Shown: positions 6,193 through 54,771 of the stretch, piece by piece
How positions within the stretch are numbered: position 1 is the first letter of the stretch
How the letters are laid out: every line of letters begins with the position of its first letter
DNA from: a virus
Taxonomy: Duplodnaviria; Caudoviricetes
Reading direction: 5' to 3' (one strand)
Length of the DNA stretch: 64,000 bases
IMG/VR virus record: IMGVR_UViG_3300033463_000012
Made by a program: the position numbers and the translations under genes
Notes under the pieces: generated by a model
The model's database searches: none
Told to the model about the DNA's origin: nothing
What the model saw: only the letters and a program-made list of their open reading frames with translations

Positions 6193-6194
6193 TT

Positions 6195-6703: not shown

Positions 6704-6705
6704 TT

Positions 6706-7095: not shown

Positions 7096-7128
7096 GCTAG
7101 TTCTCCTTGTGGTTGTGAGAGTTAAGGC

Positions 7129-12022: not shown

Positions 12023-12024
12023 GA

Positions 12025-14701: not shown

Positions 14702-14712
14702 GAGAAAGACAA

Positions 14713-15606
14713 ATGAACATCGAAAAATTCAAGAACATAGATGGATTCAATCTATCAGAATTCCGAGACAGTTTTCTTTATTACGGTCCTCATTCAAATT
14801 TTATTGAATTCGCGTGCTATGTAAATGAACACCTGCCTGAAGGTTGTACAGCAAAGCTGGTAGCCGGAACTCAGGCAATTAAGGTATCATATAAAAATTA
14901 TACTCTTTCGTGCGCATACATGTCAGTCAATGACAAGGAAATTCATTTAGACAGCGGAAAAAACTTCAAGAAAATGAAGATAAATGGCGACCCAGATGGA
15001 TGTGCGAGAAGATTCCTCAAAACTGTCGTAGAACCTAGGATCCTAACGGCAAAGGAACAGGAACGAAAAGAAGAGGAAGTCAGAGTCGCCAACGCGAACA
15101 AGGTGAATAACTTTTTGTCCTATGTGATTCCAGACGAAAAGGACATCTACAGAGCTGAAACTGCCTGGGAACGAAGCCATGGGCTTCTATCCAAATATAT
15201 TAAGTTTCTTGATCAGCAGTTGAATAAAATCACTGATCCTAACAAGGCAAAGCGTCGTATCAAGGCCTTCTATGATCATCTATTGTCAATGACAAAGGAT
15301 AATGCAGAAGATTTATCTGTCAACAAAACATTAAGTCGCCTTAAAAACAGAATGCTTGATCATATGAATGAGTCATACGTGTTTAATGAATCCGAAGAAC
15401 CGGAATTTGCCTATTTCTTCCGATTCAGTGACCCGGACGAGGCAGCTGATGAAGAATACTATTTCCGGGAAAGTTGGGGCAATGAATACGATTCAGTTGC
15501 AGAACATGAATATGTCGTGGTCGTAGCTGACGAAAAAGGCGCCAAGATTGCAGAGGAATTCTTCAAGAAAAATCCAGTAATGATCAGAGAGATTTCGGAG
15601 GACTAG
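14713..15606 (+). CDS. Modular late protein (KITDP module, MNES/FNES linker)
   Basis: Shares 'QQ.NKITDP.KA.RR..AFY..LL' with 18766..19794. Confidence 0.7.
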   Translation: MNIEKFKNIDGFNLSEFRDSFLYYGPHSNFIEFACYVNEHLPEGCTAKLVAGTQAIKVSYKNYTLSCAYMSVNDKEIHLDSGKNFKKMKINGDPDGCARRFLKTVVEPRILTAKEQERKEEEVRVANANKVNNFLSYVIPDEKDIYRAETAWERSHGLLSKYIKFLDQQLNKITDPNKAKRRIKAFYDHLLSMTKDNAEDLSVNKTLSRLKNRMLDHMNESYVFNESEEPEFAYFFRFSDPDEAADEEYYFRESWGNEYDSVAEHEYVVVVADEKGAKIAEEFFKKNPVMIREISED

Positions 15607-16817: not shown

Positions 16818-17753
16818 ATGAAAAGAGAATTGATTGAACGTTGGGAACGCCGTCGCGAACTCAAGCGCAAGATTCGCGAATCTGTGCGTGCCGCTCGTCG
16901 GAAGAAGATGCTTGAATCCATCATGGAACGGAAGGAAATCAGCCATAGCCGTCGTCATGGCCTGGCCGAACGTCTTCACGAGTCCTCCAAGCTTCGTCGG
17001 GAACGTCTCCTGGAAGCCCTGAAGGAACGTCGAAAGAGCCGTCTCGCCGAAGCCGTTGAACGTCGGAAGGCTCATCGCCTCGCCGAAGCCCTCCGTGAAC
17101 GTCGTCGTGCTCGCCTGACCGAAAGCCGGTTTGGTGGTCGTCGCGTCATTGATGGTTCTTCCCGTGGTTTCCGTCGTGAGGACGAATCCCTTGACCTTGA
17201 CAGCAAGCTGAGCCGCAAGTCTCGCATTGCCGCCCTTCTCAACAAGCGTCGCGATTTCACTCGTGGCTATGATGAAGATTGGGAAGATGATGATCTGGAC
17301 GAATCCCGCAAGGAACGTCGCCAGCGCATCATGGAAAAGATCAAGGAACTTCGCAGCAAGAAGGCCCTGAAGGAAGACGAACTGGATGTCGAAATCCAGG
17401 ACGACACTCTCCCCATGGACCCTGAAGCCACGCCCGATGAACTCGGTGCCGATTCAGTTGACGGTGAAGAACTTGACGCTGACCTCCTTCTCGGTGAATC
17501 CAAGGAAGTCAAGGCCGACATCAAGCAGCTCAATGAATCCAAGCGTTTCCAGACTTTGATCAACAAGTATCTTTCCGAAGGCGTCCTTGAAGAATCCAAG
17601 AAGGAAGACAAGGAAGACAAGGAAGACAAGGAAGACGAAGAAAAGGAATGCAAGGACGGCAAGTGCAAGGACAAGAAGGACGACAAGGCCACCGCCAAGA
17701 AGTCCGTCAAGGAAAAGGTCCAGGCCTGCAAGGAATGCAAGTCCAAGAAGTAG
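16818..17753 (+). CDS. Arg-rich/acidic probable prohead core or internal protein with many x-x-E(S/A) sites
   Basis: Own CTAAATT and terminator; strongly biased codons (cgt, aag, gaa); IRES, MLES, LHES, LLEA, LAEA, LTES, LDES, LGES, LNES, LEES. Confidence 0.7.
   Translation: MKRELIERWERRRELKRKIRESVRAARRKKMLESIMERKEISHSRRHGLAERLHESSKLRRERLLEALKERRKSRLAEAVERRKAHRLAEALRERRRARLTESRFGGRRVIDGSSRGFRREDESLDLDSKLSRKSRIAALLNKRRDFTRGYDEDWEDDDLDESRKERRQRIMEKIKELRSKKALKEDELDVEIQDDTLPMDPEATPDELGADSVDGEELDADLLLGESKEVKADIKQLNESKRFQTLINKYLSEGVLEESKKEDKEDKEDKEDEEKECKDGKCKDKKDDKATAKKSVKEKVQACKECKSKK
17601..17636 (+). repeat. 9-bp tandem repeat (aaggaagac)x4 encoding KED
   Basis: Read directly from the sequence. 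Confidence 0.85.
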
Positions 17754-22699: not shown

Positions 22700-22700
22700 G

Positions 22701-32054: not shown

Positions 32055-32693
32055 ATGAAGCTAATAGTCGAAACAGTAGAACCAAATGAAATCAACGTCC
32101 TCAATGAAGCGACCGAGGACGGGAAGAAGCATTGGTATATTTCCGGCCCCTTCATGCAGGCGGACACCAAGAACCGCAATGGCCGAATCTACCCGAAGAA
32201 GATCCTTGAACGCGAAGTGGAGAAGTATATCAAGGAAAAGGTGAACACCAAGCAGGCCATGGGCGAACTTGACCACCCCCCGCAGACCACGATCAATCTT
32301 GAACGTGTTTCCCACTTGGTCGAATCCCTGAAGTTCGAAGGGAACAACGTGATCGGCAAGGCCAAAATCCTGGATACCCCCTGTGGCAGAACGGTTCAGT
32401 CCCTGCTCGATGGAGGGGTCAAGTTGGGTGTTTCCTCCCGTGGAGTCGGCTCGCTAAACGAAGACACTGTGGCGGATGACTATTCCCTCGTTTGCATTGA
32501 CATCGTGGGTGATCCTTCGGCCCTTTCCGCTTATGTGGACGGGATTTACGAATCGGTCGACTACATCGTTTCAGGTGACAAATTCGTGGAAAAGGCTGTC
32601 GACAATCTGAAGAAAGAATTGGACAAGAACGGCTCCAAGAGGATTTATGAGGCGATGAGCCAGTTCCTCAAGGACATCCAGAAGACGCTTTGA
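32055..32693 (+). CDS. Prohead core protein protease (gp21)
   Basis: GPFMQAD.KNRNGRIYP, GELDHP, KILDTP.G, GVSSRG.GS, DIVGDPSA. Confidence 0.96.
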   Translation: MKLIVETVEPNEINVLNEATEDGKKHWYISGPFMQADTKNRNGRIYPKKILEREVEKYIKEKVNTKQAMGELDHPPQTTINLERVSHLVESLKFEGNNVIGKAKILDTPCGRTVQSLLDGGVKLGVSSRGVGSLNEDTVADDYSLVCIDIVGDPSALSAYVDGIYESVDYIVSGDKFVEKAVDNLKKELDKNGSKRIYEAMSQFLKDIQKTL

Positions 32694-34300: not shown

Positions 34301-34325
34301 ACCATTATCCATAAAGGAAAACAAA

Positions 34326-35804
34326 ATGAGCATTCTATCCGAAAAGTGGTCCCGCGCAAAGGGACTTGGACTGGACGACATCAAGGACCAGTCCGTCAAG
34401 AACAACATGGCGCAGCTGCTCGAAAACCAGATGCGCGAACTCGGTGGCCGTGGATTCCTGACCGAAGCTGACACCGGGATGGGCGGCAACTTCGCTACCG
34501 GTATCGGTGACGGTGGCAATCCTGCTGGCGAATCCGGTATCGCTATCGGTGCCAAGCCCACTGGCAACCTCCCCGCTGGTGGCGACAACATGGGCGCTCT
34601 CGCTCCTATGTCCTTCGCTCTCCTCCGTCGTTCGTTCCCTGCCCTATTCGCCAACAAGGTCGTAGGTGTCCAGGCCATGAACGGTCCCGTGTCCCTCATC
34701 ATGGCCCAGCGCTATGTCTATCAGGGCACCAAGGACGAAGCCGGTTGGGACAAGGTTCCCTCTTACGCTGGCTTTACCGGCAACTTCAACGGCATGACCG
34801 GTGTTGATGCAGCTTCCGCCAAGATTATGGCTTCCGCTGCCGCTCAGGACCCCCAGATCGCTGAAGCTTGGAGACTTCGTGCTCCTATCGCCGACGCCAA
34901 CGATGGCCCTGTCACTGATTTCGGTGGTGACCTCAACAAGTACCCCGAACTCACCGTCCACATGTCCCGCGTTCCGGTTCTCGCCAAGACCCGTAAGCTG
35001 GGCGCTTCCTACTCTCTGGAAGCCGTCATGGACGCCAAGGCCGTTCTCAACCTCGACCTGGAAAAGGAACTCCTTTCCACCATCCAGTATGAACTGGTTG
35101 CCGAACAGGACCGTGAAATCATCGCTCGCCTGAAGAAGGTTGCCCAGGATGAAGGCAACATTTCCACTGGCAACGAAGAAGCCGGCTACATCTACGAAGG
35201 TTCGCCCTTCCAGACCACCATGGCTTACCCCAACGGTGGTATCGCTGGCCTCGGCATTGACCTGACCACTCTTGACGGTGAATCCAACAAGCAGCAGGAC
35301 GCCATTTCCTGCCTGATCACCTACATCATGGGTCTGGCCAACTCCATCGCGGTCGCAACTCACCGCTCCGCTGGCAACTTCGCCATTGTCAGCCCCGGCG
35401 TTGCCACCCTCCTGCAGTGCGCTGGTCCTATCTGGAACCGCGTCGCCTCTGCAGTCAATCCTCTCGAAGCCACTCCCGAAATCGGCACCCTCGGTGAAAA
35501 CATCAAGGTTTACCGTGACCAGTATGCCCTCGAAGACTACGTCCTCGTTGGCTACAAGGGCTCCTCGAACCTCGATGCCGGTATCTTCTACGCTCCTTAC
35601 GTCACCGGACTTGAAAGCCGTGCGGTCAGCGCTCAGAACTTCGCTCCTCGTATCGGGGTCATGAGCCGCTACGCCATCGTGGACAACATCCTCGGTGCTG
35701 GTAGATACTACCGTTACGCCAAGGTTAAGATCCCTGCTAGCTTGTTCAACAAGGCCGAAGTTGACAACACTGTGGCTAGCATGTTCAAGCCCGTCGGATA
35801 CTAG
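34326..35804 (+). CDS. Major capsid protein (gp23)
   Basis: EKW, LLENQ, FLTE-A cleavage site, RRSFP..ANKVVGVQAMNGP, AKTRKL, VGYKG, DAGIFYAPY, PRIGVMSRYA. Confidence 0.97.
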   Translation: MSILSEKWSRAKGLGLDDIKDQSVKNNMAQLLENQMRELGGRGFLTEADTGMGGNFATGIGDGGNPAGESGIAIGAKPTGNLPAGGDNMGALAPMSFALLRRSFPALFANKVVGVQAMNGPVSLIMAQRYVYQGTKDEAGWDKVPSYAGFTGNFNGMTGVDAASAKIMASAAAQDPQIAEAWRLRAPIADANDGPVTDFGGDLNKYPELTVHMSRVPVLAKTRKLGASYSLEAVMDAKAVLNLDLEKELLSTIQYELVAEQDREIIARLKKVAQDEGNISTGNEEAGYIYEGSPFQTTMAYPNGGIAGLGIDLTTLDGESNKQQDAISCLITYIMGLANSIAVATHRSAGNFAIVSPGVATLLQCAGPIWNRVASAVNPLEATPEIGTLGENIKVYRDQYALEDYVLVGYKGSSNLDAGIFYAPYVTGLESRAVSAQNFAPRIGVMSRYAIVDNILGAGRYYRYAKVKIPASLFNKAEVDNTVASMFKPVGY

Positions 35805-44107: not shown

Positions 44108-44137
44108 ATTGAACAAACAACCAAAAGGAAATTTCAA

Positions 44138-44395
44138 ATGATCAGACGCAGAAGACTTTACGAAGAAGACGACTATGTTAGAGGTAAAGAGTGGACCCAT
44201 GCTAATTTGAACTATAAAAGCGGTTATCATGATGCGCTGAAATTCGTTGTCAATGTCGCTGAAGATTACGATGATATTGATGGATTTCGTGTATGGATAA
44301 ATCATGCTATTACAAAAGCTAAAAAAGAACTGAGTGAAGCGGGTGAATCATGGGCAAAGATCAGAGGCCTTAACCAAGAGAAAACAGGAGTATAG
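44138..44395 (+). CDS. Small late protein with 'MIRRRRLYE' leader
   Basis: After CTAAATT; SD aagga. Confidence 0.65.
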   Translation: MIRRRRLYEEDDYVRGKEWTHANLNYKSGYHDALKFVVNVAEDYDDIDGFRVWINHAITKAKKELSEAGESWAKIRGLNQEKTGV

Positions 44396-44396
44396 A

Positions 44397-45386
44397 ATGA
44401 TCAGACACAGAAGAATGATGGAATCTAGAATAAGCGATAAGGCACAAGAAATAATAAATGCCAAGAAGAAACGTCAGGATAGGCGTTCCTCCAAAATGTC
44501 ATACGAAGAGACTCAAGAGGCCGAAAACAAACGTCGCATTGAGCGGATATTCATGATAAAGGTCAAGAAGCTGTACGGTCTTCTTCCTGAGATATTGAAA
44601 GATGTGGAAACTGTTTATCAGGTAACAGGAAAGGCCATAGATGAGGAAGCTGGTGACGAGACTTTTCCTGATATGTTTTTCGGTATCTCAGACAATGAGC
44701 CTTATGTTGAGGTTGAAGCCGACTTGGTAGCTAGGGTTTCCGGGGAAACAGGAAGAAAGCATTTGATTTTGCAAAGTAAATATGACGGTTATTCTCTAAA
44801 TATCGATATAAACGGTGGCAGAGTAATTTACTCTTATATTCTTAAATTCGCCAGGAGCCTAGAGGATGTTGATGAAAGCGAGAGCGACAAGGACGCCATA
44901 GAACATCTTTTCAAACAAATCTCTCGGTGTATTGAAATTGTAGAAGATGATGCTGATGAAGTGAGCAAGAAGCTGGAAGGAATCCTTGACGAATACGACC
45001 GTAAGGAAATTCGTGGAATGAAGGAATCCTACAGACGTCGTGGTCACATGCTTCGTGAAGGACTTCTCAGTCAAGCCAAAGAAGAAGCCGAAAAGAGAAA
45101 GAGCAATGGAAAAATCATTCAGGAAAGGGCAAAGGAATTCCTGAAAGTTTTGAAAGAACTCTATCTGCACGCCGGTTATCATTTTGATTGGGATGAAGCC
45201 GAATGGACATCAGACAATGATCTCAAAATTCCATACGACATCAATGACGAAAAGACCGAAAAATTGGTCAATGAACTTTGCAGATATGGATGGATTTCCA
45301 AATGGAACAAATACAAGATTTGGGTCAAAGCAAAAGAATTTGCGGATGATGACCGTTTTGAAACCCTAATGGGTTGGTTGTCCTAA
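44397..45386 (+). CDS. Modular late protein (leader MIRHRRMMES; 14-aa linker)
   Basis: Internal MKESYRRRGHMLRE at 45018-45059. Confidence 0.75.
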   Translation: MIRHRRMMESRISDKAQEIINAKKKRQDRRSSKMSYEETQEAENKRRIERIFMIKVKKLYGLLPEILKDVETVYQVTGKAIDEEAGDETFPDMFFGISDNEPYVEVEADLVARVSGETGRKHLILQSKYDGYSLNIDINGGRVIYSYILKFARSLEDVDESESDKDAIEHLFKQISRCIEIVEDDADEVSKKLEGILDEYDRKEIRGMKESYRRRGHMLREGLLSQAKEEAEKRKSNGKIIQERAKEFLKVLKELYLHAGYHFDWDEAEWTSDNDLKIPYDINDEKTEKLVNELCRYGWISKWNKYKIWVKAKEFADDDRFETLMGWLS

Positions 45387-45411
45387 TGAAGGTTATTGAT
45401 CAAAAGGAGTT

Positions 45412-46620
45412 ATGAACATGGATTCATTTTGGAGCACAGAAGCATATTTATATCGCGAAGAAGATGATTTCTATTGCTTCAATTGTCTGGGTGATGAAGC
45501 GTCACTTGACATATTCATCGACAAGGAAACATTGGATTCCAGTTATGCCTTGATCATTGGTGATGAATATGCTATCGGGGACAAAGACAATCATGTTTCC
45601 GAAGACGTGATTCTGACCAAAGGAAATGAATTACTGGAAAGCGTGATCGGGGAATATGCAACACTGACCAAAGATCAACTCATGGAGATGACATACAATG
45701 CATCAACCCAGGTCACTTCGGAATACAATGACCTAGGAACCGATACCAGAACAGGGCTTCCTTGGGGTCAAACCGAAGACATGAATGAATCCACTGAACC
45801 GGAAAAACTCGACGAAAGACTGGAAATAGATGACAATTTCAGAGTCATGTGGGGTGGACATTTGACCAACATCGCTGACACTCTGTATGCAATCTACAAG
45901 GGTGGAGACAACTTCAACAGACAAGAATTTCAAGACGGAATGGTAAGAAGCAGAAGTCTGAACAATGCCATGATGTATTTGAACATCTTTTCTGCTCTGC
46001 AACGCAAAGGTTGGCTGACAAAGGAACGTCAGGGTCGTCATTTCAAGTATCATCTTACACCCGAAGGAATGAAACAGGTTGATCGTGTTCTCGCCGCTTT
46101 GGGTGAAAAGAGAAATGACATCAAAACAGCAAAGCCAGAAACAAAGCCGGAAAGCAAACCCGAAACAAAACCAGTGTCCAACAAGATTTCCGTGATGCCT
46201 TTTGAACAGTGTTTCTTCGCCTCAATGGTTTTGGATGCCGAAGATTACAGTGGACCACGTGAATGCTCCTGGATCAGTCCCAGTAATTTGCGTGAAGTGC
46301 TTGAAACATATACAGATGAAGATGACAATCCTTTGAATGTAAATGAACTCAAGCGGCTATATGAAGAATATAAGGCAAAAATCCTCAATGGTGAATCCAA
46401 AAGCAATGCAAAACTTCATAAGGTTGGTTATGACTATGGGGAAATTTCCAGCAGATGCATTCCAGACATCACCGAATATGGAAAATCTTGGCCCGAATAT
46501 GACAGACGGCAGGCACGTGTTCAGCTAGAAACCACACTTTGGATGCTTGTTACAACTTCCAGAGACGATTGGAAATTCAATGACAATGAATGGGATAGTT
46601 GCCCTGTCAAGAAAAAGTAA
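45412..46620 (+). CDS. Modular late protein with a winged-helix module
   Basis: MNESTEPEKLDE linker; LQRKGWLTKERQGRHFKYHLT wHTH; (KPE[TS])x3 spacer. Confidence 0.75.
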   Translation: MNMDSFWSTEAYLYREEDDFYCFNCLGDEASLDIFIDKETLDSSYALIIGDEYAIGDKDNHVSEDVILTKGNELLESVIGEYATLTKDQLMEMTYNASTQVTSEYNDLGTDTRTGLPWGQTEDMNESTEPEKLDERLEIDDNFRVMWGGHLTNIADTLYAIYKGGDNFNRQEFQDGMVRSRSLNNAMMYLNIFSALQRKGWLTKERQGRHFKYHLTPEGMKQVDRVLAALGEKRNDIKTAKPETKPESKPETKPVSNKISVMPFEQCFFASMVLDAEDYSGPRECSWISPSNLREVLETYTDEDDNPLNVNELKRLYEEYKAKILNGESKSNAKLHKVGYDYGEISSRCIPDITEYGKSWPEYDRRQARVQLETTLWMLVTTSRDDWKFNDNEWDSCPVKKK

Positions 46621-46628
46621 GGAGAATA

Positions 46629-47264
46629 ATGAACATGAAGGAAAGTGTATTTGACAAAGGCATGCCAGAACACGATTATGTTTGGACAATCTTTGACTAT
46701 GATACTGGTGATTCAGAATACGAAGCGGACACCAGTTTCGAAACAGTTGAAGAAGCCAAAGCCGATGGTTTGGATTTCCTGAAAGGACTGACTGATGGAC
46801 ACTATGTGCTCAAGGTCTGGAATTTCTATGAAGATGAAGGCCCATTGGAAGATGGTGGTGTCCTTTGGATTGAAAGTGACCATGGCGAAATAAAAGATGA
46901 CATGGACGAATCTGTCGAAAGCCACGGTCAGATGCTTAATGAAGATGAATATCTCAGCAATCCTTTCAAGGTCGGGGACATTCTTGCAGGTTCATACAAC
47001 TACCGTGTCATAATTCCTCACTTCACCCAGGTCATTGCAGTCACACCGAAATCAGTGAAGTGCAGAGATTTGGTCGGTCAGGGAATGTCCGGCATGTTCG
47101 GTAACACCGCATACGCCGAAAAGGACGTATTCGACACCAGAGAACCGATTTGGACCGCTCGTGTCAAATACTACCGTGATGGTGATAGTCCACATGTCTA
47201 TCATGGACAGGTCTCGTACAGTCTATGGGACGGCAAGCCCATGCAATACGATTATATGGATTAG
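46629..47264 (+). CDS. Modular late protein (leader MNMKES; 14-aa linker)
   Basis: MDESVESHGQMLNE at 46902-46943, followed by an SH3-like FKVGDIL module. Confidence 0.75.
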   Translation: MNMKESVFDKGMPEHDYVWTIFDYDTGDSEYEADTSFETVEEAKADGLDFLKGLTDGHYVLKVWNFYEDEGPLEDGGVLWIESDHGEIKDDMDESVESHGQMLNEDEYLSNPFKVGDILAGSYNYRVIIPHFTQVIAVTPKSVKCRDLVGQGMSGMFGNTAYAEKDVFDTREPIWTARVKYYRDGDSPHVYHGQVSYSLWDGKPMQYDYMD

Positions 47265-47288
47265 CTGACAAAGAATGAACATAAGAAG

Positions 47289-47315
47289 AGGCCCCACGAA
47301 AATGGGGCCTATTTT
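47289..47315. terminator. Intrinsic terminator between convergent genes
   Basis: aggcccca-cgaaaa-tggggcct-atttt. Confidence 0.75.
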
Positions 47316-47339
47316 AATCAATAAATCAGAAGCATGTTT

Positions 47340-48026
47340 TTAATGATATTTGTCTTCCTTCAACATTTTTCCACGATAACGACGAGATTCCTTCATGTTC
47401 CTATGCATTTTGGCGAGTTTCTGTTTCTGTTCAGTCGAAAGAAGTTTCCAATAATTGTTTGGATTGGTGTAGCTCTTGACAGTTTTGTACAATTTGTCGA
47501 CAAGGTTTTTGTATTCATTCAAAAGGTAAATAGTTGGAACAGTAACAGCTTCAATAGTCGGAGTATCAAAATACTCTTCACGACAATCTTCATAGCAACA
47601 AACCAAAAAGTTATACAATTTATCTGGACTGCTAATACAATTTGAGTATTCCAAAGAAGTATCACCACCGGTTCTTGACCAATAAATAGTCAGTGGATAG
47701 TGTACATTAGGGTCATATTCTACATACCACCACAGGTCTGATGGACCAATTACTATAAATCCTTCATGAGTTATTCTGCAAATTTTGTATTCTTTCTCTG
47801 GTTTACTCAATTCTTCAATTAAATCATATTCATCCTGAGGATCTTTTTCAAAATTATCAAGACCATTGCACTTTATTGTCTTTTTATGTTCATCATAAAG
47901 TTCTTCCCAAATTTTATGAATTTTCCTACATTTGTCTTCAATGTAATCTGTAATTTCAGAACATTCCCAAGCTGCATCATGCAACTTCCGTTCTTCCTCT
48001 TCAGTGAATTCATATTCATCACGCAT
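47340..48026 (-). CDS. AT-rich late protein ending in the 14-aa linker
   Basis: Reverse CTAAATT at 48053; C-terminal MKESRRYRGKMLKE at 47355-47396. Confidence 0.75.
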   Translation of the reverse strand: MRDEYEFTEEEERKLHDAAWECSEITDYIEDKCRKIHKIWEELYDEHKKTIKCNGLDNFEKDPQDEYDLIEELSKPEKEYKICRITHEGFIVIGPSDLWWYVEYDPNVHYPLTIYWSRTGGDTSLEYSNCISSPDKLYNFLVCCYEDCREEYFDTPTIEAVTVPTIYLLNEYKNLVDKLYKTVKSYTNPNNYWKLLSTEQKQKLAKMHRNMKESRRYRGKMLKEDKYH

Positions 48027-48095
48027 ATTCGAATCCTTTTGGTTGTTTATTCAATTTAGTCCCGTCTCTAAATTGGTCAAGAGAGGTGCAATGTC

Positions 48096-49055
48096 ATGAA
48101 AAGATCTGGTTGGCCATATTTCTACAGCTCCAGCATACGCAGATTGTTGGTTGCCTTTATGACCACTTTCTCTGACATCAAGGTTCGTAGATATGATGAC
48201 TCTGGTCTGAAGACACCAGAGCATTACAAGGAAATCCTGGTTCCTATCAAGTTCGGTCCTATGTCAAAGTATTTCCAGAGACGGACTGAAGACGCATCAG
48301 GGCAAAGGTATTACATTCAGCTCCCTGCAATGGCCGTCACATTCTCGTCGTTCTCCTTTGACAATGCACGTTCCACTGCCTCAAGACAAAGACGATTCCT
48401 TCTTGACCCTGACAAATACACCGTTCCTGCTGAATTCCTGACCGACATGATGCCTTCCCCCTGGGACATCAACTTCACTTTGGCCATAAAGACGGAATCA
48501 TTCCAGGACTTCTGCCAGATAATCGAGCAAATCGTTCCCTGGTTCAACCCGGCAATCCACATCAAGGTCAAGGAATTCGAGACTGTCAACTTGGAAAGGG
48601 ACATTGAAGTGATCTTGAACGGGATGAGCACTGACATCACGGAAGAAGTTGAGGAAGACGGCAAGCGATATGTTTCCGGAACCTTGGACTTTGTCGCCAA
48701 GGCCTGGATGTACAAGCCAATCTCAATGGCCGACAACATGATCAAGGTCATCCATACCCACTACGGTTTTGACCCCGAATTCAATCTCGACGGGGAGAAT
48801 TTCGTGACCAAGGGAATGAAGCTGGAAGAGGCAATGGACAAGAAGGAATATCCCATGAAACCTGCGAGAACACGTGGGGAAGTGGACAAGATGGATGTGG
48901 AAAATGCACCTGAAGACTTGCCGGACATGGGATACATCAATGACAAAACCACCGACGGAAGGCCGAATCACGTGCCTTACAATGTCGAAGTGAAGCCGGA
49001 TGAAGCGGAAATGGAATTCAATGCAGAGGATGCAGAAGGAGAAACGAATGGCTGA
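48096..49055 (+). CDS. Tail sheath stabiliser / tail terminator (gp15-like)
   Basis: YFY.SSIRR..VAF..FSDI.V.R, VPIKFGP..K, LP.M, P.PWDI.F.L, QIIEQI.PWF.P. Confidence 0.9.
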   Translation: MKRSGWPYFYSSSIRRLLVAFMTTFSDIKVRRYDDSGLKTPEHYKEILVPIKFGPMSKYFQRRTEDASGQRYYIQLPAMAVTFSSFSFDNARSTASRQRRFLLDPDKYTVPAEFLTDMMPSPWDINFTLAIKTESFQDFCQIIEQIVPWFNPAIHIKVKEFETVNLERDIEVILNGMSTDITEEVEEDGKRYVSGTLDFVAKAWMYKPISMADNMIKVIHTHYGFDPEFNLDGENFVTKGMKLEEAMDKKEYPMKPARTRGEVDKMDVENAPEDLPDMGYINDKTTDGRPNHVPYNVEVKPDEAEMEFNAEDAEGETNG

Positions 49056-49860
49056 TGTTGAAATCTATGTATGTGCATCCGATAAAAATCTCAAGGACAT
49101 AACCAGATTGAAATTGCCTTCAAACAGAAAAGTCATTACAACAGAAAAATCTGGATTTAAAGACAATATTGACAATTTGAATCCTTGGTATTGTGAAGCA
49201 TCTGCTCTGTATTCTTTGTGGAAAAATTCAACTGCTGACATAATCGGTTTGGAACATTATCGCAGATTCTTTGTATCAAATGGCAAAATATTGAATGAAG
49301 AACAGATAAAGTCAAAGCTGAAAGAAAATGACATTATTGCCTGTGAAATGAAACTCAAATCTCCTACGATAGATGCTGGTTTCAGAAAAGGATTTGTTGG
49401 ATTCCCGTGGACAAAAGAAAAAAGATGTAAAATTCATTGGATGTTGACAGACTTTTTGAATCATCTTTCCGCCACTGAAAAGTATGCAGAGATGTCAAAA
49501 TTCATGCAAAATGAATTGAATCATAGCAGTGCATTCTTCAAGGGAAACATGTTCATTGCCAAAAGGTCTGTAGTTGAACCTTGGTTTGAAATGATGTTCA
49601 CTGAGTTGGAATCCTATCTGAAGTCAAAAAATATAAAATTGGATGAATCGAACCTTAGGTCAATTGGTTGGTTGTTCGAATATCTGTTTTTGCCGTGGTG
49701 TCATTATATGAAATTGAAGATTGCACCATGTAATATCCGTGAATATGATAAATGTCTGAAAAGAATTGATACTGACATTCATGCTATTGTTCATAAAAAG
49801 ATTGTAATAAAGGCAAAGAAAAGAACTACAAGTAAAATTCAAGATGATTGGGAGGACTAG
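49048..49860 (+). CDS. DUF4422-family glycosyltransferase-like protein 1
   Basis: DNI..LNPWYCE.SALY..WKN..ADIIGLEHYRRFF, NMFI, R..G..FE. Confidence 0.85.
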   Translation: MADVEIYVCASDKNLKDITRLKLPSNRKVITTEKSGFKDNIDNLNPWYCEASALYSLWKNSTADIIGLEHYRRFFVSNGKILNEEQIKSKLKENDIIACEMKLKSPTIDAGFRKGFVGFPWTKEKRCKIHWMLTDFLNHLSATEKYAEMSKFMQNELNHSSAFFKGNMFIAKRSVVEPWFEMMFTELESYLKSKNIKLDESNLRSIGWLFEYLFLPWCHYMKLKIAPCNIREYDKCLKRIDTDIHAIVHKKIVIKAKKRTTSKIQDDWED

Positions 49861-50649
49861 ATGAGATTCGGAAGGGAAGTAAAGGAAAATCCTAGGACAT
49901 TTCAAGAAAAGCTGATCTGGCTGCAATTCTATGACAAAATGAATTGGCTGAAGCCTATATGTTCCGACAAAATAAAAGTCAGGGAATATGTGAAGGAAAA
50001 GATAGGATCAGACATCTGCGTTCCTCTTCTCAAGGTTTATGATTCTCCCGATGACATCAAGCTGGAAGAATTGCCCAATCATTTCATTCTGAAGACAAAT
50101 CACGGAAGTGGTCAATTCATCAGATGCAGAGACAAATCAAAGTTCAATCTTCAGGAAGCGAAATCCAAACTAAAAACCTGGTTGTCTCGTCCTTATGGTG
50201 TCTCCACTTGTGAACCTCATTATTTCTACATAGACAGAAAATGCTATGCCGAGGCACTTCTGGAAAACACCAATGGAAACAACGTGGATGACTACAAGCT
50301 ATACTGTTTCAATGGAAAGCCAAAGATGGTTCAGATGGAATGCGACAAGGGAACACCCAATGCTCGTTTCCAATATTATGACATGAATTTGAAGTTCATG
50401 AACATTTGCAGGACTGATCATAAGAGTCGGAAGGACCTTGTCAAAAAGGATATTCTGCCGAAGCACTTGGACATTATGAAGGAATATGCAGAAAAGTTGG
50501 CCGCACCTTTCAAATTCGTTCGGGTTGACTTTTATGAAGTGAACGGAAAGGTGTATTTTGGCGAAATGACATTTGTCCCAGGTGCAGCTAATTTTTCATT
50601 TACGAATCCTAATGTATCATTGGAATTGGGGAAGTGGCTCAATATATGA
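49861..50649 (+). CDS. TupA-like ATP-grasp amidoligase
   Basis: TFQEKL.WL, DK..VREYV, FILKTNHGSG, DYK.YCFNG.P, FVRVDFY, YFGEMTF.P. Confidence 0.9.
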   Translation: MRFGREVKENPRTFQEKLIWLQFYDKMNWLKPICSDKIKVREYVKEKIGSDICVPLLKVYDSPDDIKLEELPNHFILKTNHGSGQFIRCRDKSKFNLQEAKSKLKTWLSRPYGVSTCEPHYFYIDRKCYAEALLENTNGNNVDDYKLYCFNGKPKMVQMECDKGTPNARFQYYDMNLKFMNICRTDHKSRKDLVKKDILPKHLDIMKEYAEKLAAPFKFVRVDFYEVNGKVYFGEMTFVPGAANFSFTNPNVSLELGKWLNI

Positions 50650-51476
50650 AGTATTCAATCCTTACATACAATTTCGGTGGCTATGACAATCCAAGGAAAC
50701 CACAGGAAGTTTCCAAGGAAGCTGAATATGTTTTCGTGACAGATTCCAAGGGTTCAGTTGCTCCTTTTGTCAGGAAATCATTGAACATCAAGGGAACGCC
50801 ATTGGCCAAGTGTCAATATGTGAAGCATCATCCTTTCGAGTTCGTGTCATCTGATTGGGTCATAGTCATGGACTCGAGCATTGAAATTCAGCAGGACTTG
50901 ACCCCTTTGGTCGAATATTGTCAAGAAAAGGGAATTGAAGCAATGTTCATTTCCTCTCCATACGCCACTACATGGAAAACTGAAATCAAACCGAATCCAG
51001 TCTGGCAGAAAAGGAATCCCAATCTCAAGAAGGAAATCGATTGGCTTTGGAAGACATTCCCAGATGACAGATTAAACATAGAAGGGATGTTCTACATATT
51101 GCACAAAACTGATTTGGTGAACAGCATATTCTCATCTATTGTAGCTCACTGTAATGACTTGAAGAAACATGGCAGTGATCCGCGTCCTTGTCAGGTGATC
51201 TATTCCGGGACAGTGGCCAATGAATTTGCAGAAGAAATCAAATCCGGCAAAATCTCCTTTATGTCCTCATATCAGATTCGTGGTGCAGGTACAATGATGT
51301 GCATCTACCAACATGGGTCAAATAGGAAGTTTTCTGTTCTGAAATGTAGAGACGGAGTGAACATCATAGGTCTTGACTACAAACCACTTACTTTTAAGTG
51401 GCTGGATAGAGTTAAACCTTCAAAACCGGAAGTTCAAAAGAAACATATTTCAGGATTTGAGGAGTGGGATGAATGA
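50646..51476 (+). CDS. DUF616/TOD1-like glycosyltransferase
   Basis: YT.NFGGYD, YVFVTD, VK..P, MDSS. Confidence 0.6.
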   Translation: MKYSILTYNFGGYDNPRKPQEVSKEAEYVFVTDSKGSVAPFVRKSLNIKGTPLAKCQYVKHHPFEFVSSDWVIVMDSSIEIQQDLTPLVEYCQEKGIEAMFISSPYATTWKTEIKPNPVWQKRNPNLKKEIDWLWKTFPDDRLNIEGMFYILHKTDLVNSIFSSIVAHCNDLKKHGSDPRPCQVIYSGTVANEFAEEIKSGKISFMSSYQIRGAGTMMCIYQHGSNRKFSVLKCRDGVNIIGLDYKPLTFKWLDRVKPSKPEVQKKHISGFEEWDE

Positions 51477-52216
51477 TCAGAATAATGTCATTAGGCAGTA
51501 ATTGTGCAGACCTTTCATATCTTGGTGATTTTCGGGTTCCTGGTCCTGTTGACAATTGGGTGGCCAATCATGGATTTGAAGATGCATTGCATCTTTTCAC
51601 TGATTTCAAACAACAGATAGAAAGTGGATGGTTGGAAGCAAAACCAAGAATAAAAGCATTTGCTGAAGACAGTGACATAAATTTCAGATATGAGTCTTAT
51701 TCATGCATTCATCTTGACATGAGAAATCCTGATATTGTCAAGAAGGTTTTCAAACGTTATGAAACAATGATTGAATTTGCAGAAAAGGTGAAGGCCGACC
51801 CGGAATGCTATTTTTCGTATACCTTGGGGTGTCATGATATTTGCAAAGAGAAAGGATTGTTCGTATTAAAAAAAGAAACTGTAAATGCAATCAAAGAATT
51901 TGGCAAGACATTTCCATTGAACAAACTCATTCTGGTCGGGACGACAAAGGTCAAAGTGAAGGGTGGATATTTCAATGGTTATATTGAAAAGAAACCAGAA
52001 TTTGCCAATTATGTTTTCATACCGGATATATCAGTGTCTGCAAGAAAGTTGACCAAGAAAGAAAATTCAGAATGCATGCGAAAAAACATGGATCATATAA
52101 ATGATCCGGGTGGAATACCTTTTAAGAAACCTTCAGATTTCATTGAGCATAAAAAGGTAATAGTCAAAAAACCTGTACATAAAAGGACTGTAAAATACGA
52201 TGATTGGGACGACTAA
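51473..52216 (+). CDS. DUF1796-like protein (putative papain-like, glycan-locus associated)
   Basis: IMSLGSNC...R..GP.D.W N-terminal motif. Confidence 0.55.
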   Translation: MIRIMSLGSNCADLSYLGDFRVPGPVDNWVANHGFEDALHLFTDFKQQIESGWLEAKPRIKAFAEDSDINFRYESYSCIHLDMRNPDIVKKVFKRYETMIEFAEKVKADPECYFSYTLGCHDICKEKGLFVLKKETVNAIKEFGKTFPLNKLILVGTTKVKVKGGYFNGYIEKKPEFANYVFIPDISVSARKLTKKENSECMRKNMDHINDPGGIPFKKPSDFIEHKKVIVKKPVHKRTVKYDDWDD

Positions 52217-52997
52217 ACTCGAAATCACTGTCTGCACACCACTTGACAGAATAGACACCATCAAGCAAAAGGGCATGCCTCCTAATCGTGTCCTCTATGT
52301 TCCAGGAATCACTGACTCAAAAGGTGGCATTCCTGACCTCAATCCCTGGTATTGCGAAGCCACTGCCCTCTATTGGATGTGGAAGAAATCGAAGGCAAAG
52401 ATTGTAGGCCTTGAACATTATCGCAGATTCTTCGTGGACAATCAAAACAAATTCCTGACCGAGACTAAAATCCAGGACCTTCTCAAGGTTCATGATGTCA
52501 TAGTCGCGGAACATAGATACCTAGGCAAACCCGAAACCTGGCCGATTGTCGCCCAGTCCATTGTCACTGGTTGGGAAGGCAGAAAATTTCAGGCATACAA
52601 GATGATATATGGCTTCATTCTTCATCTGGCCAGGAATCCGAAGACCTATGACTTCGCCAGATTCGTCCTCAATGACCTATACGATGAGCAGACTCTGTAC
52701 AAATGCAATATGTTCATAGCCAAGAAAAAGCTGTTGAACGAGTGGTGCGAGTTCATGTTCCCTGCACTTGATGAATGGTTCAAGACCGACGGGATGGTCC
52801 TTGATCAAACTAACATGAGATTGGTCGGATATGTATTTGAACATATCTTTGGTTCTTGGCTCAAATGGAAGGAATACAAGATATATGTCAGTCCCTATCT
52901 GGTGTTCGACAAGGAATTGAAGGAAGTCGACCCATTACAGATGGGAGTGGACGGGTTGAAGTATCTGCAGCCGACAAGCAAGGTCAGATACTTGTGA
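52200..52997 (+). CDS. DUF4422-family glycosyltransferase-like protein 2
   Basis: LNPWYCEATALYWMWK...VGLEHYRRFF, CNMFI, RLVGYVFE. Confidence 0.85.
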   Translation: MIGTTKLEITVCTPLDRIDTIKQKGMPPNRVLYVPGITDSKGGIPDLNPWYCEATALYWMWKKSKAKIVGLEHYRRFFVDNQNKFLTETKIQDLLKVHDVIVAEHRYLGKPETWPIVAQSIVTGWEGRKFQAYKMIYGFILHLARNPKTYDFARFVLNDLYDEQTLYKCNMFIAKKKLLNEWCEFMFPALDEWFKTDGMVLDQTNMRLVGYVFEHIFGSWLKWKEYKIYVSPYLVFDKELKEVDPLQMGVDGLKYLQPTSKVRYL

Positions 52998-53028
52998 GCT
53001 AAATTGAATAAACATTAAGGAGTGTATT

Positions 53029-53808
53029 ATGAGAAAGAAATATGAACTAACAGATGAAACAATGGAATGGAAAGGACATACCTTGCATCGGATTCGTGCT
53101 CTCAAGAATTTCAAATACACCGAAGAAGGTAATCTTGGTGGTTGGGTTGAATCAGAAGACAACTTGAGTCAAGAAGGCAATTGTTGGATATATAGCCATG
53201 CCAAGGTATATGACAATGCGGTAGTAATGGACAATGCTGATGTATCTGGTGATGCTCAAGTATATGGTAATGCAGTCATAAAAAAAGAAGCGAAAGTAAG
53301 TTATAATGCCAAGGTATATGGTAATGCCACGATTGAAGGAGATTCCTTAGTATTTGGAAATGCAACCATTTGCGACAATGCCAAATTACTGTGGCATGCT
53401 GAAGTGACAGATCATGCCATTATAGCCGATAATGCCAAGGTATCTGGTAATGCCAAGGTATATGACGATGCTGTAGTAAATGGATATGCCGAGATACACG
53501 ACAGTGCCGAAGTATATGGTAATGCTCATGTATCTGAAAAAGCATGGGTATATGGTGAAGCAAGAGTATATGATGATGCTCATATATACGGAAGTGCTCA
53601 GGTTTATGGAATTTCCAAAGTATATGAAGAAGCACAGGTATATGAAAATGCAAAGGTGTCAGGTGATATTTGGATCAATGGCAAAGCCGATGTTCACGGT
53701 GATGTTATTCTTGGGCCTGCTGTTGGTCAGTTAGATATTTGTGGAACTGCAAATATTGAATCGAATGATGATGTCAATATTCCCAGAGGTAGAAAAACAA
53801 TTCATTAG
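53029..53808 (+). CDS. Hexapeptide-repeat protein, paralog 3
   Basis: KKYELTDETME..LHRIRALK.F..GGWVESEDNLSQ; C-terminus similar to paralog 1. Confidence 0.85.
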   Translation: MRKKYELTDETMEWKGHTLHRIRALKNFKYTEEGNLGGWVESEDNLSQEGNCWIYSHAKVYDNAVVMDNADVSGDAQVYGNAVIKKEAKVSYNAKVYGNATIEGDSLVFGNATICDNAKLLWHAEVTDHAIIADNAKVSGNAKVYDDAVVNGYAEIHDSAEVYGNAHVSEKAWVYGEARVYDDAHIYGSAQVYGISKVYEEAQVYENAKVSGDIWINGKADVHGDVILGPAVGQLDICGTANIESNDDVNIPRGRKTIH

Positions 53809-53829
53809 GATTTTGAAATAGGAGCATAT

Positions 53830-54771
53830 ATGAAGCAACCAATAATGGTCAATGAATTCGATGAAGATTTGTTCGATTCCTTTTATGAAGGCAGTGCATT
53901 GACTTTCCTTGGAATGGTCCCGGAGGAAGCCCAGAATTATCTTGACTATTTCAAGGACTATACCGACGTCGATGACAATGTCCAGTGCTACATCGTCAGC
54001 GGAAGTGCAATGAATGACGGGTATGGCCTGCGGGGATCAAACAGATATCCGGATGACCTTCATATCTTCATTGTCCCCCTGGAAGCGTTCGGTGATGTAG
54101 GCAAGATCGCCATTCCTCGGTTCCAAATCGGTGGCCGTTGGTTTGATGACGTAGTCGACAACAATGCTCGGAAAAACATGGAGGAATCCTGTCATTGTCG
54201 TGGTCATCAACTCAATGAACGATGGAGTTCAGACGAAGATACGGTTTATTCATGTCTTCATTATTGTAATAAATATGAAAAGCCAATATGGTTTGCAGAA
54301 TTGAATGACGATGAGTATTATTTTGACCTGTATTTAAACATAGGCCGTTTGCTTGGAGAAGCCAAACCGCTCATTCCTTCCAATCTGTTGAAAATATGGG
54401 AAGCATTAGCAGATTATGAATTCGAAGACGAAGATGCAGATACCATAGATTTTGCATACAATTATGTTAAGACTGGAGATAATGGACACTATGGCAATGA
54501 CCCCGATGCAGAAGGTTATGCTTATGCAAAGTTGAACATAGATGGAAATATCAATATAGAGGATTACATTATTCCGGTGATTGAAGGCGCTTTGGGCATA
54601 GTGAATGATCCTAGCAATGGCTTTATTGACAAAGATGCTAGTTTAAGTGAAGATGAACTTCTGTCTGCAGAAAATATCTTCATCGATGCACTTGTCAAAA
54701 CATATAATTCAAATGGATATGACAAAGAATTGAACGATTTGGATGGAAAAGAATTCGAGGAAAATTTTTAA
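53830..54771 (+). CDS. Modular late protein (14-aa linker)
   Basis: N-module ...GGRWFDDVVDNN; linker MEESCHCRGHQLNE at 54178-54219; AT-rich C-module. Confidence 0.75.
   Translation: MKQPIMVNEFDEDLFDSFYEGSALTFLGMVPEEAQNYLDYFKDYTDVDDNVQCYIVSGSAMNDGYGLRGSNRYPDDLHIFIVPLEAFGDVGKIAIPRFQIGGRWFDDVVDNNARKNMEESCHCRGHQLNERWSSDEDTVYSCLHYCNKYEKPIWFAELNDDEYYFDLYLNIGRLLGEAKPLIPSNLLKIWEALADYEFEDEDADTIDFAYNYVKTGDNGHYGNDPDAEGYAYAKLNIDGNINIEDYIIPVIEGALGIVNDPSNGFIDKDASLSEDELLSAENIFIDALVKTYNSNGYDKELNDLDGKEFEENF

What the first reader, a model, noticed from the sequence alone, without database searches (positions are those of the whole stretch)
44397..54771. A fixed 14-aa double-cleavage linker joins unrelated modules: candidate protease-processed polyprotein cassette system for head-packaged effectors
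Seen: four otherwise unrelated late proteins carry the same-length linker M-x-E-S-x4-G-x-x-L-x-E. They are MKESYRRRGHMLRE (45018-45059), MDESVESHGQMLNE (46902-46943), MKESRRYRGKMLKE (47355-47396, minus strand, at the C-terminus) and MEESCHCRGHQLNE (54178-54219). The DNA is also similar (atg.a.gaatc....cgtggtca..). In 53830..54771 base composition visibly changes across the linker. Established: T4 gp21 cleaves after (L/I)-x-E, and this phage's gp23 has the canonical FLTE-A site. Inference: the linker is a portable capsid-targeting/cleavage tag with two gp21 sites. It would let foreign domains be fused, packaged into the head and released as separate proteins for injection. Its conserved DNA could also act as a recombination joint for module swapping.
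Basis: partly seen in the sequence, partly recalled or inferred. Interest (0 to 1): 0.88.

Follow-up and report, generated by a model that had tools for sequence, protein, structure and literature searches.

The report
Conserved linker joining shuffled phage modules
A distant relative of phage T4 joins unrelated small protein modules with one conserved 14-residue peptide that looks like two cutting sites for its head protease, so these late genes are probably polyproteins cut up inside the capsid, although no cutting or packaging has been shown.

Summary
M-x-E-S-x4-G-x-x-L-x-E occurs exactly four times in the window, always in frame in long ORFs. No copy appeared in any shuffle, and only about 5e-6 copies are expected from the hit rate in 596 Gb of genomes.

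The four proteins share nothing else. All sit behind a late-promoter-like CTAAATT motif.

The peptide marks module boundaries. In the 53830-54771 protein it directly follows a widespread ~120-aa stand-alone domain. In a related phage protein (P0003) that domain is joined, through a variant linker, to a module that is a separate gene here (14695-15606). So modules do swap at the linker.

Both halves fit T4-type head-protease sites (hydrophobic-x-Glu). The phage has a gp21 homologue, and its gp23 keeps the T4 site FLTE|A. The core RRRG-x-x-(L/F)-x-E recurs in the scaffold-position protein of another T4-like phage.

Best reading (about 0.55): a protease-processed linker, CTS-like in function, in capsid-cargo polyproteins. 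Cleavage, packaging and injection remain untested.

The recombination-joint idea is weak, because identical DNA runs are at most 10 nt.

The scan already noted this linker family on adjacent DNA of the same genome (e1-5824538). Its follow-up reading agrees with mine.

Novelty: new variant of a known kind.

The parts
45018..45059 (+). Linker copy 1, MKESYRRRGHMLRE. Internal in the 44397-45386 protein, at residues 208-221 of 329.
46902..46943 (+). Linker copy 2, MDESVESHGQMLNE. Internal in the 46629-47264 protein, at residues 92-105 of 211.
47355..47396 (-). Linker copy 3, MKESRRYRGKMLKE. C-terminal in the 47340-48026 protein and followed only by DKYH-stop.
54178..54219 (+). Linker copy 4, MEESCHCRGHQLNE. 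It lies between the conserved N-domain and the low-GC C-module of the 53830-54771 protein.
44397..45386 (+). Two-module late ORFan (329 aa). Its N-terminal leader MIRHRRMME-S is shared with the upstream ORF. No homologue was found.
44138..44395 (+). 85-aa ORF, first gene behind the CTAAATT motif at 44104. Its leader is MIRRRRLYE; 17 of its first 18 nt match the start of the next gene.
45412..46620 (+). 402-aa multi-module ORF carrying a degenerate linker, MNESTEPEKLDERLE, at 45781-45825. A MarR-like winged-helix lead starts right after it. The degenerate copy is not statistically separable from chance.
46629..47264 (+). Two-module late ORFan (211 aa). Its N-terminus, MN-MKESVFDKGMPE, is a partial linker copy. 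The C-module has a weak match to phrog_37844 that starts 4 residues after the linker.
47289..47310 (.). Bidirectional terminator hairpin between the convergent 46629-47264 and 47340-48026 genes.
47340..48026 (-). 228-aa late ORFan with the linker as its C-terminal tail. It has its own CTAAATT motif at 48053-48059 on the minus strand. No homologue was found.
53830..54177 (+). N-domain (residues 1-116) of the fourth protein. It belongs to a widespread ~120-aa stand-alone family with 370 cluster representatives. The model is confident (pLDDT above 90) and ferredoxin/ACT-like, with no assigned function.
54220..54771 (+). C-module (183 aa, net charge -30, GC3 0.30) with essentially no homologues: almost all hits stop before the linker, and three (P0018, P0039, P0040) extend to residues 168-174.
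52999..53808 (+). CTAAATT motif plus a beta-solenoid gene (53029-53808) that heads the unit containing 53830-54771. It is a paralogue of 30622-32034, which lies in the head module just upstream of the protease gene.
32055..32693 (+). Prohead protease, a T4 gp21 homologue and the proposed processing enzyme.
   Evidence: phrog_207, E 4e-71
34452..34469 (+). G-F-L-T-E|A in the major capsid protein. The pentapeptide is identical to the T4 gp23 maturation site F-L-T-E65|A66.
14695..15606 (+). Stand-alone gene whose residues 11-229 are 61% identical to the second module of P0003. The homology ends exactly at the M-N-E-S junction (15364-15375), which is followed by YVFNE-S and an unrelated tail.
16818..17753 (+). 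Arg-rich protein made of tandem 12-mers, [S/A]xxxRRxxxLxE. It has 12 hydrophobic-x-E-[SAG] sites against 1.4 expected. The units resemble the inner 11-mer of the linker.

Best explanation
The 14-residue element is a processing linker for the phage's T4-type prohead protease (the gp21 homologue at 32055-32693). It consists of a first site, Met-x-Glu|Ser, then a short spacer that is usually basic and contains Gly, then a second site, Leu-x-Glu|. It joins independently folding, independently evolving modules within single late ORFs, and once it forms a C-terminal tail.

Inferred mechanism: the precursors enter the prohead core, perhaps helped by the basic spacer, which resembles elements of scaffold proteins. 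The protease then cuts at both sites, releasing the modules as separate internal proteins and discarding an 11-mer.

Shown here: the motif and its statistics, its position at module boundaries, module exchange at the linker, late-promoter context, and the presence of a conserved protease with a conserved capsid-protein site.

Inferred only: cleavage, packaging, ejection, and any function of the cargo.
For: (1) There are four exact copies against none expected.

(2) The linker sits at boundaries. All 150 listed relatives of the fourth protein's N-domain align to query residues ending at about 111-133 in nearly all cases, and the linker starts at 117. In the AF2 model the domain is confident to about residue 120, and residues 121-135 are low-confidence coil. 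GC3 changes across two of the three internal linkers.

(3) Module swap. P0003, from a 193-kb contig, consists of the N-domain (58% identity), then TNESIEHRGMNKMNE, then a module 61% identical to window gene 14695-15606 (E 5e-95). That homology ends at M[T/N]ES, after which the tails are unrelated. A third copy of the module, in 18766-19794, ends at LNES.

(4) Protease fit. The phage has a gp21 homologue (E 4e-71), and its gp23 keeps FLTE|A as in T4, where mature gp23 starts at residue 66. T4 gp21 cuts after Glu at L/I-x-E. T4 Alt is cut at both ends, at ITE-6 and LTE-619 (PMC5694885, PMC9026906).

(5) In multi-domain relatives of the N-domain, [LIMVF]xE[SAG] lies within 25 residues of the domain edge. 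Downstream this holds in 12 of 23 against 2.7 expected; upstream in 14 of 37 against 3.7 expected.

(6) Across the window, [LIMF]xES occurs 38 times against 19.8 expected (z = 4). The controls [LIMF]xDS (16 against 17.9) and non-hydrophobic-xES (56 against 76) show no excess.

(7) The only metagenome pattern hit lying in a T4-like context is L085, in the 636-aa ORF between gp21 and gp23. That ORF holds MKESQRRRGDVFLE, SRRRGRMFFE and RRSRRLFE|A, and has 18 sites against 4.6 expected. Its C-terminus matches the scaffold-position gene of Flavobacterium phage immuto.

(8) All four genes lie behind CTAAATT. This motif has 20 copies against 7.75 expected, and most sit 21-38 nt upstream of structural-gene starts.
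Against: There is no proteomic or biochemical evidence of any kind.

Met at P3 of the first site has no experimental precedent in T4, where P3 is L or I.

The related protein P0003 has Thr in place of that Met, so the first site may not be required.

A bare hydrophobic-x-Glu site does not explain why Ser4, Arg/His8 and Gly9 are conserved, so something beyond cleavage is under selection.

The T4 CTS is N-terminal, whereas these elements are internal or C-terminal.

The boundary and enrichment statistics use homologous proteins that are not fully independent. Tandem repeats inflate the site counts in 16818-17753 and in the L085 scaffold.

The L085 ORF is called a scaffold from its position and from a shared C-terminal segment only. 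It shows no similarity to the window's gp22.
Confidence: 0.55

Rival explanations
1. The element is a docking peptide that is not cleaved. On this view it is a short linear motif that binds one partner, such as the scaffold core, portal, capsid interior or a host protein. It tethers or recruits the modules, and the Glu residues serve binding rather than cleavage.
For: Conservation goes beyond what a hydrophobic-x-Glu site needs: Ser4, Arg/His8 and Gly9 are conserved in the four copies, and E, S, R and G are kept in P0003. The element works in N-terminal-like, internal and C-terminal positions. RRRGxxFxE recurs in a scaffold-position protein.
Against: Both ends coincide with hydrophobic-x-Glu followed by a small residue, as at the gp23 site. 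Simpler junctions in relatives keep only the site-like part, for example MNES, LNE|A and LDE|S. A pure docking motif would not need to sit exactly at module boundaries.
Confidence: 0.2
2. The element is a relic of gene fusion, or an internal start. On this view the motif is the conserved N-terminal leader of once-separate genes, with Met as their start codon. It was brought inside ORFs by loss of stop codons, and may still serve as an internal initiation site that makes the downstream module separately.
For: All four copies begin with Met. The 46629 gene starts MN-MKESVFDKG, which is a partial copy. Two adjacent genes share a leader, with 17 of 18 nt identical. T4 gene 21 itself has an internal start (PMC9026906).
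Against: No consistent Shine-Dalgarno sequence precedes the four ATGs, whereas real starts here have AAGGAG-type sites. The copy in 47340-48026 is followed by only four codons. P0003 has Thr, not Met. No gene in the window starts exactly with M-x-E-S.
Confidence: 0.1
3. The element works at the DNA or RNA level. On this view the 42 nt act as a recombination joint, a regulatory RNA or a nuclease target, and the peptide is incidental.
For: Arg codons in the copies are CGT in 7 of 8 cases against 20% genome-wide, which hints at shared DNA descent. Modules have been exchanged at this point.
Against: Identity between copies is about 55-70%, with identical runs of at most about 10 nt. 'GAATC' follows from codon usage. 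Variation is concentrated at third codon positions and at the x positions of the peptide. RNA folds are no better than shuffles, with z from -0.5 to +1.3. All copies are in frame inside ORFs.
Confidence: 0.05

Closest known systems
T4 capsid targeting sequence (CTS) and gp21-processed internal proteins IPI, IPII, IPIII (Mullaney and Black 1996, as reviewed in PMC9026906)
   Same: Both are short conserved peptides ending in hydrophobic-x-Glu, shared by otherwise unrelated and fast-evolving accessory proteins of a T4-type phage. In T4 the peptide is removed by the prohead protease. The review proposes the CTS as an evolutionary device for loading varied proteins into the capsid.
   Different: The T4 CTS is about 10 residues and strictly N-terminal, with one site and one cargo per gene. 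Here the element is 14 residues with two sites and is internal or C-terminal, so it joins two or more modules in one ORF. There is no sequence similarity to MKTYQEFIAE. Targeting and cleavage are untested here.
T4 Alt, processed at both termini (ITE-6 and LTE-619; PMC5694885)
   Same: It is a packaged protein with a C-terminal as well as an N-terminal propeptide removed by gp21. This parallels the C-terminal linker tail of the 47340-48026 protein.
   Different: The propeptides of Alt are not a repeated conserved cassette and do not join separate modules.
T4 scaffold/core proteins gp22, gp67 and gp68, cut into short peptides
   Same: These contain many hydrophobic-x-Glu sites. The window's gp22, the L085 scaffold-position ORF and the Arg-rich 16818-17753 protein show dense arrays of such sites, and the L085 ORF contains the linker core RRRGxxFxE.
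   Different: Scaffold fragments are disposable assembly material. Here the pieces between the sites are folded domains that also occur elsewhere as stand-alone proteins.
Multiply cleaved propeptides of phiKZ, 201phi2-1 and SPN3US head and ejection proteins (PMC5694885, PMC10052503)
   Same: In these phages many head-internal proteins are processed after Glu at a short motif, with redundant sites, and paralogues share N-terminal leaders.
   Different: The cleavage motif differs ((S/A/G)-x-E), as does the phage group. Propeptides are removed there, rather than two cargo modules being separated by a fixed linker.

Membership tests
T4-type CTS-bearing internal head proteins | The phage encodes a gp21-family prohead protease and a gp23 with a conserved maturation site. 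| tested here: met
   Match to phrog_207 with E 4e-71. The window gp23 has GRGFLTE|AD and T4 has GSFLTE65|A66.
T4-type CTS-bearing internal head proteins | The targeting peptide is a leader of about 10 residues at the extreme N-terminus. | tested here: not met
   The four copies lie at residues 208, 92 and 117 and at the C-terminus. Only the leaders MIRRRRLYE and MIRHRRMME and the partial copy at 46635 are N-terminal.
T4-type CTS-bearing internal head proteins | The peptide ends in (L/I)-x-Glu, followed by the mature protein. | tested here: met
   All four copies end in L-x-E. The first site is M-x-E|S.
T4-type CTS-bearing internal head proteins | The protein is found inside the head and is cleaved by gp21. 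| not testable with these tools
   This needs virion proteomics or a protease assay.
T4-type CTS-bearing internal head proteins | Late expression together with the head genes. | tested here: inconclusive
   CTAAATT precedes all the relevant units and most structural genes. That it is the late promoter is an inference, and TATAAATA is absent.
Viral polyproteins cut by a virus-encoded protease | One ORF contains several modules that fold on their own and also occur separately. | tested here: met
   The N-domain is mostly a stand-alone protein of about 120 aa. The second module of P0003 is a separate gene in the window. The AF2 model shows a confident domain followed by a coil.
Viral polyproteins cut by a virus-encoded protease | A recurring site consensus at the module boundaries that matches the protease's specificity. 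| tested here: met
   Four identical-format linkers are present. Hydrophobic-x-E-[SAG] is enriched at domain edges in relatives.
Viral polyproteins cut by a virus-encoded protease | Cleavage products have been demonstrated. | not testable with these tools
   No experimental data are available.
DNA-level shuffling cassettes of T4-type genomes (conserved non-coding promoter/stem-loop elements; recalled from the literature, not read here) | A conserved nucleotide element, intergenic and structured, with long identical runs. | tested here: not met
   The element is coding and in frame. Identical runs are at most about 10 nt, and there is no RNA structure.

The most novel reading that the evidence does not exclude
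The linker is a position-independent tag that mimics scaffold elements. It both addresses cargo to the prohead core and is excised at two sites, so that one late ORF delivers two or more distinct proteins into the capsid and on into the host. The cargo repertoire would then evolve by swapping modules at the tag. This would amount to a polyprotein cargo system in a T4-type phage, which I have not seen described.
Probability: 0.3. Interest if true: 0.8.

Novelty: new variant of a known kind. Interest (0 to 1): 0.62.

Why it matters
Phages of the T4 type are known to load a few accessory proteins into the head through an N-terminal tag, with one protein per gene.

If this lineage strings modules together and lets the head protease separate them, two things follow. 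First, polyprotein processing would be part of how large phages build and diversify their injected protein sets. Second, many long 'hypothetical' late ORFs in metagenomes should be read as several proteins.

The linker also gives a simple sequence handle for finding such cargo, and a testable natural design for packaging foreign proteins in phage heads.

The module swap seen between two phages shows that the junction is a real evolutionary seam.

Tried and rejected
- **Close relatives:** none were found in cultured phages or in IMG/VR via gp15. The 44397-45386 and 47340-48026 proteins have no homologues among 5.8 billion proteins.
- **Family libraries:** Pfam and PHROGs give nothing for the four proteins.
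- **Pattern scans:** IMG/VR gave 3 distinct hits, all probably chance. The metagenome scan gave 88 hits, all but L085 apparently chance. Genome contigs gave 45 chance hits, none T4-like.
- **N-domain loci in IMG/VR:** a first attempt with the 109-sequence alignment failed for lack of a conserved stretch. The retry with a smaller alignment found only stand-alone copies, in phages that are not detectably T4-like. The link between polyprotein forms and T4-type proteases therefore could not be tested.
- **Structure of the N-domain:** Foldseek against PDB and BFVD gave no match. VIA-align gave only generic ferredoxin/ACT/RRM-like matches with Z of at most 4.5.
- **Single-sequence AF2 of 44397-45386:** the model was poor, with pLDDT 52.
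- **Complex prediction:** the protease with the C-terminal 44 residues of 47340-48026 gave no verdict (score 0.01). This is neither support nor evidence against binding.
- **Other checks:** TATAAATA is not this phage's late promoter. The RNA-structure idea was rejected. 'GAATC' as a DNA signal was rejected. Degenerate extra linker copies (45781, 46635, 24938 and one in 15854-16771) cannot be separated from chance by PSSM.


Full report
**Observation**

A six-frame regex for M.ES....G..L.E finds these four and nothing else in 64 kb. The matching degenerate DNA pattern gives 4 hits against 0.00 in 100 shuffles. The same pattern gives only 45 hits in 596 Gb of prokaryote genome contigs, none of them in a T4-like context. 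That rate implies about 5e-6 expected per window.

A PSSM built from the four copies scores them at 41-47 bits. The next best site in the proteome scores 13.9, which lies inside the shuffle range. So there are four sharp copies. The looser look-alikes cannot be told from chance. These are MNESTEPEKLDERLE at 45781, MKESVFDKGMPE at the N-terminus of the 46629 gene, and MKESVYNR at 24938.

The carrier proteins share no other similarity. They have no Pfam or PHROG family.

**Context**

The window comes from a distant T4-type phage. Recognisable genes are:

- portal, 25603-27288;
- prohead protease, 32055-32693 (E 4e-71);
- scaffold, 33137-34300;
- major capsid protein, 34278-35804;
- tail sheath stabiliser gp15, 48096-49055.

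gp15 is only 25-32% identical to its counterparts in cultured phages.

TATAAATA is absent. Instead CTAAATT occurs 20 times against 7.75 expected. Most copies lie 21-38 nt upstream of structural-gene starts, including portal, protease, scaffold and gp15. I take it to be the late promoter element, but this is an inference.

Copies of the motif precede each unit that carries a linker:

- the unit 44138 / 44397 / 45412 / 46629;
- the convergent gene 47340-48026;
- the unit 53029 / 53830.

A bidirectional terminator at 47289-47310 closes the two convergent units. On this reading all four linker proteins are late genes.

**The linker marks module boundaries**

The 53830-54771 protein gives the clearest case. 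An exhaustive HMMER search found 370 cluster representatives related to its first ~116 residues. Most are stand-alone proteins of 110-135 aa. Nearly all of the listed alignments stop at about query residues 111-133, and the linker begins at residue 117.

An AF2 model built with 108 relatives is confident up to about residue 120, with block-mean pLDDT of 91-98 over residues 11-120. Its last helix covers M-E-E-S. Residues 121-135 are then coil with pLDDT near 50.

GC3 falls from 0.54 before the linker to 0.30 after it. The fold of the N-domain is a generic ferredoxin/ACT-like sandwich with no functional assignment.

**Modules swap at the linker**

P0003 is a 430-aa protein from a 193-kb contig. 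It has these parts in order:

- the same N-domain (58% identity);
- TNESIEHRGMNKMNE, a one-residue-longer variant of the linker that keeps E, S, R, G, a hydrophobic residue, N and E;
- a module 61% identical to residues 11-229 of window gene 14695-15606 (E 5e-95).

In the window that module is a separate gene about 39 kb from the N-domain gene.

The homology between P0003 and 14695-15606 ends exactly at M-T-E-S / M-N-E-S. After that point the two continue differently: RIDRRSLIE-S in P0003 and YVFNE-S in the window, each followed by unrelated tails. A third, partial copy of the module, in 18766-19794, ends at L-N-E-S and continues into a Cys-rich tail.

Three homology breakpoints therefore fall on hydrophobic-x-Glu-Ser junctions. 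Two of the three are double sites, like the 14-mer.

**Fit to the head protease**

T4 gp21 cuts after Glu in (L/I)-x-E. It removes the N-terminal CTS of the internal proteins, cuts Alt at both ends, and fragments the scaffold (PMC9026906, PMC5694885).

The window's capsid protein reads ...ELGGRGFLTE|ADTG. This matches the T4 site FLTE65|A66. The mature T4 chain in the PDB is 456 of 521 residues.

Both ends of the linker (M-x-E|S and L-x-E|) fit this pattern. Met at P3 is unproven.

Three statistics show that the tetrapeptide is under selection rather than being a by-product of composition:

1. In the window's proteome, [LIMF]xES occurs 38 times against 19.8 expected (z = 4.0), and M.ES 9 times against 2.5. 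The controls show no excess: [LIMF]xDS is 16 against 17.9, and non-hydrophobic-xES is depleted at 56 against 76.
2. In multi-domain relatives of the N-domain, a [LIMVF]xE[SAG] site lies within 25 residues downstream of the domain in 12 of 23 proteins (2.7 expected). It lies within 25 residues upstream in 14 of 37 (3.7 expected). Several of these proteins begin with leaders such as MNLYE|S or MSRLIE|S.
3. Stand-alone members of the family lack such leaders.

These proteins are partly related to each other, so the p-values are optimistic.

**A link to scaffold proteins**

A scan of metagenome contigs with the DNA pattern gave 88 hits. Nearly all look like chance.

One hit, L085, is a head locus of another T4-type phage. 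Its gp21 is 46% identical and its gp23 29% identical to the window's proteins. The hit lies in the 636-aa acidic ORF between the protease and the capsid gene.

That ORF contains MKESQRRRGDVFLE, SRRRGRMFFE, RRSRRLFE|A and TRRRNNILAE. It has 18 hydrophobic-x-E-[SAG] sites against 4.6 expected. Its C-terminal 110 residues match the gene in the scaffold position of Flavobacterium phage immuto, which lies between the protease and gp23 and is annotated there as 'DNA polymerase phi-like'. It shows no similarity to the window's own gp22, so calling it a scaffold rests on position and on that shared segment.

The core RRRG-x-x-(L/F)-x-E is thus shared by the window's first linker (RRRGHMLRE) and by a presumed protease substrate in a distant relative.

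Two further observations point the same way. The Arg-rich protein 16818-17753 consists of tandem 12-mers, [S/A]xxxRRxxxLxE. The scaffold ends with SERRIQRLDE.

I infer that the basic spacer mimics scaffold elements. It may help the mostly acidic cargo modules, with net charges of -2 to -30, to enter the core.

**N-terminal versions**

ORF 44138 begins MIRRRRLYE and the next gene begins MIRHRRMME-S. Of their first 18 nt, 17 are identical. The 46629 gene begins MN-MKESVFDKGMPE. These look like N-terminal relatives of the linker and are the closest parallel to the T4 CTS.

**What is not supported**

The DNA of the four copies is alike mainly because the peptide is alike.

- 'GAATC' follows from codon usage, since GAA-TCN makes up 71% of all Glu-Ser pairs.
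- Identical runs are at most about 10 nt.
- The RNA does not fold better than shuffles.

Only the Arg codons suggest common DNA descent: 7 of 8 are CGT against 20% usage. A present-day role as a homologous recombination joint is therefore unlikely, although past exchange at this seam is documented.

No module has an assigned function. A MarR-like winged helix right after the degenerate linker of the 45412-46620 protein is only a lead. 'Effector' is therefore a guess. Cleavage, packaging and ejection are all inferred. The complex prediction gave no verdict.

**Comparison and verdict**

The nearest known system is the T4 CTS with its gp21-processed internal proteins. Alt (cut at both ends) and the multiply cut propeptides of phiKZ-type phages are further parallels.

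The element fails one defining feature of the CTS: it is not an N-terminal leader. I therefore do not file it as a CTS. It probably works like one, combined with a polyprotein linker.

I found nothing in the papers read that describes a fixed internal double-site linker joining cargo modules in a T4-type phage.

I could not read that DNA. The agreement is not independent evidence.

Final scores: observation confirmed, interpretation partly supported, a new variant of a known kind, confidence in the protease-linker reading about 0.55, and interest 0.62.

Noticed in passing
window-wide, e.g. 25568, 32031, 33099, 44104, 48068, 48053-48059 (-), 52999: CTAAATT occurs 20 times against 7.75 expected. 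Most copies lie 21-38 nt upstream of structural-gene starts, while TATAAATA is absent. It is probably this lineage's late-promoter element. The leaders after 44104, 48059 (-) and 52999 are nearly identical (CTAAATTGAAyAAAC).
   Followed up: partly
16818-17753 (+): A protein with a very Arg-rich first half, built of tandem 12-mers [S/A]xxxRRxxxLxE. An acidic stretch follows, then a Lys/Cys-rich tail. It has its own CTAAATT motif. It could be a precursor of small basic head peptides.
   Followed up: partly
22683-24284 (+): A RimK-like ATP-grasp ligase (phrog_2599, E 7e-18) sits in the late head region. RimK adds Glu to a C-terminal Glu, and protease cuts after Glu would create such ends. This link is pure speculation.
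   Followed up: no
30622-32034 and 53029-53808 (+); L104:14230-15080: There are two beta-solenoid paralogues. One lies just upstream of the protease gene and the other just upstream of the fourth linker protein. In a 272-kb IMG/VR contig, a homologue lies about 4 kb from a stand-alone copy of the N-domain gene.
   Followed up: partly
53830-54177 (+): The N-domain belongs to a large uncharacterised family (motifs SALTxEG ... GGRWFDDIVDNN). There are 370 cluster representatives, mostly proteins of about 120 aa. It has no Pfam family and a generic ferredoxin-like fold.
   Followed up: partly
L096:4044-5126 and 6092-7333 (Flavobacterium phage immuto): The gene in the scaffold position is annotated 'DNA polymerase phi-like protein', probably because of its acidic repeats. 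The ORF between portal and protease contains KEHFIAE|A, close to the T4 CTS ending QEFIAE|A.
   Followed up: no
11977-12840 and 45412-46620 (+): The two genes share a 38-residue stretch (E 0.001) lying in the putative winged-helix part of the 402-aa protein.
   Followed up: no
43241-48096: The four ORFans plus ORF 44138 form a low-GC insert (GC 0.34-0.44) between the gp14-like gene and gp15, which are adjacent in T4 as I recall. This looks like a hyperplastic region.
   Followed up: no
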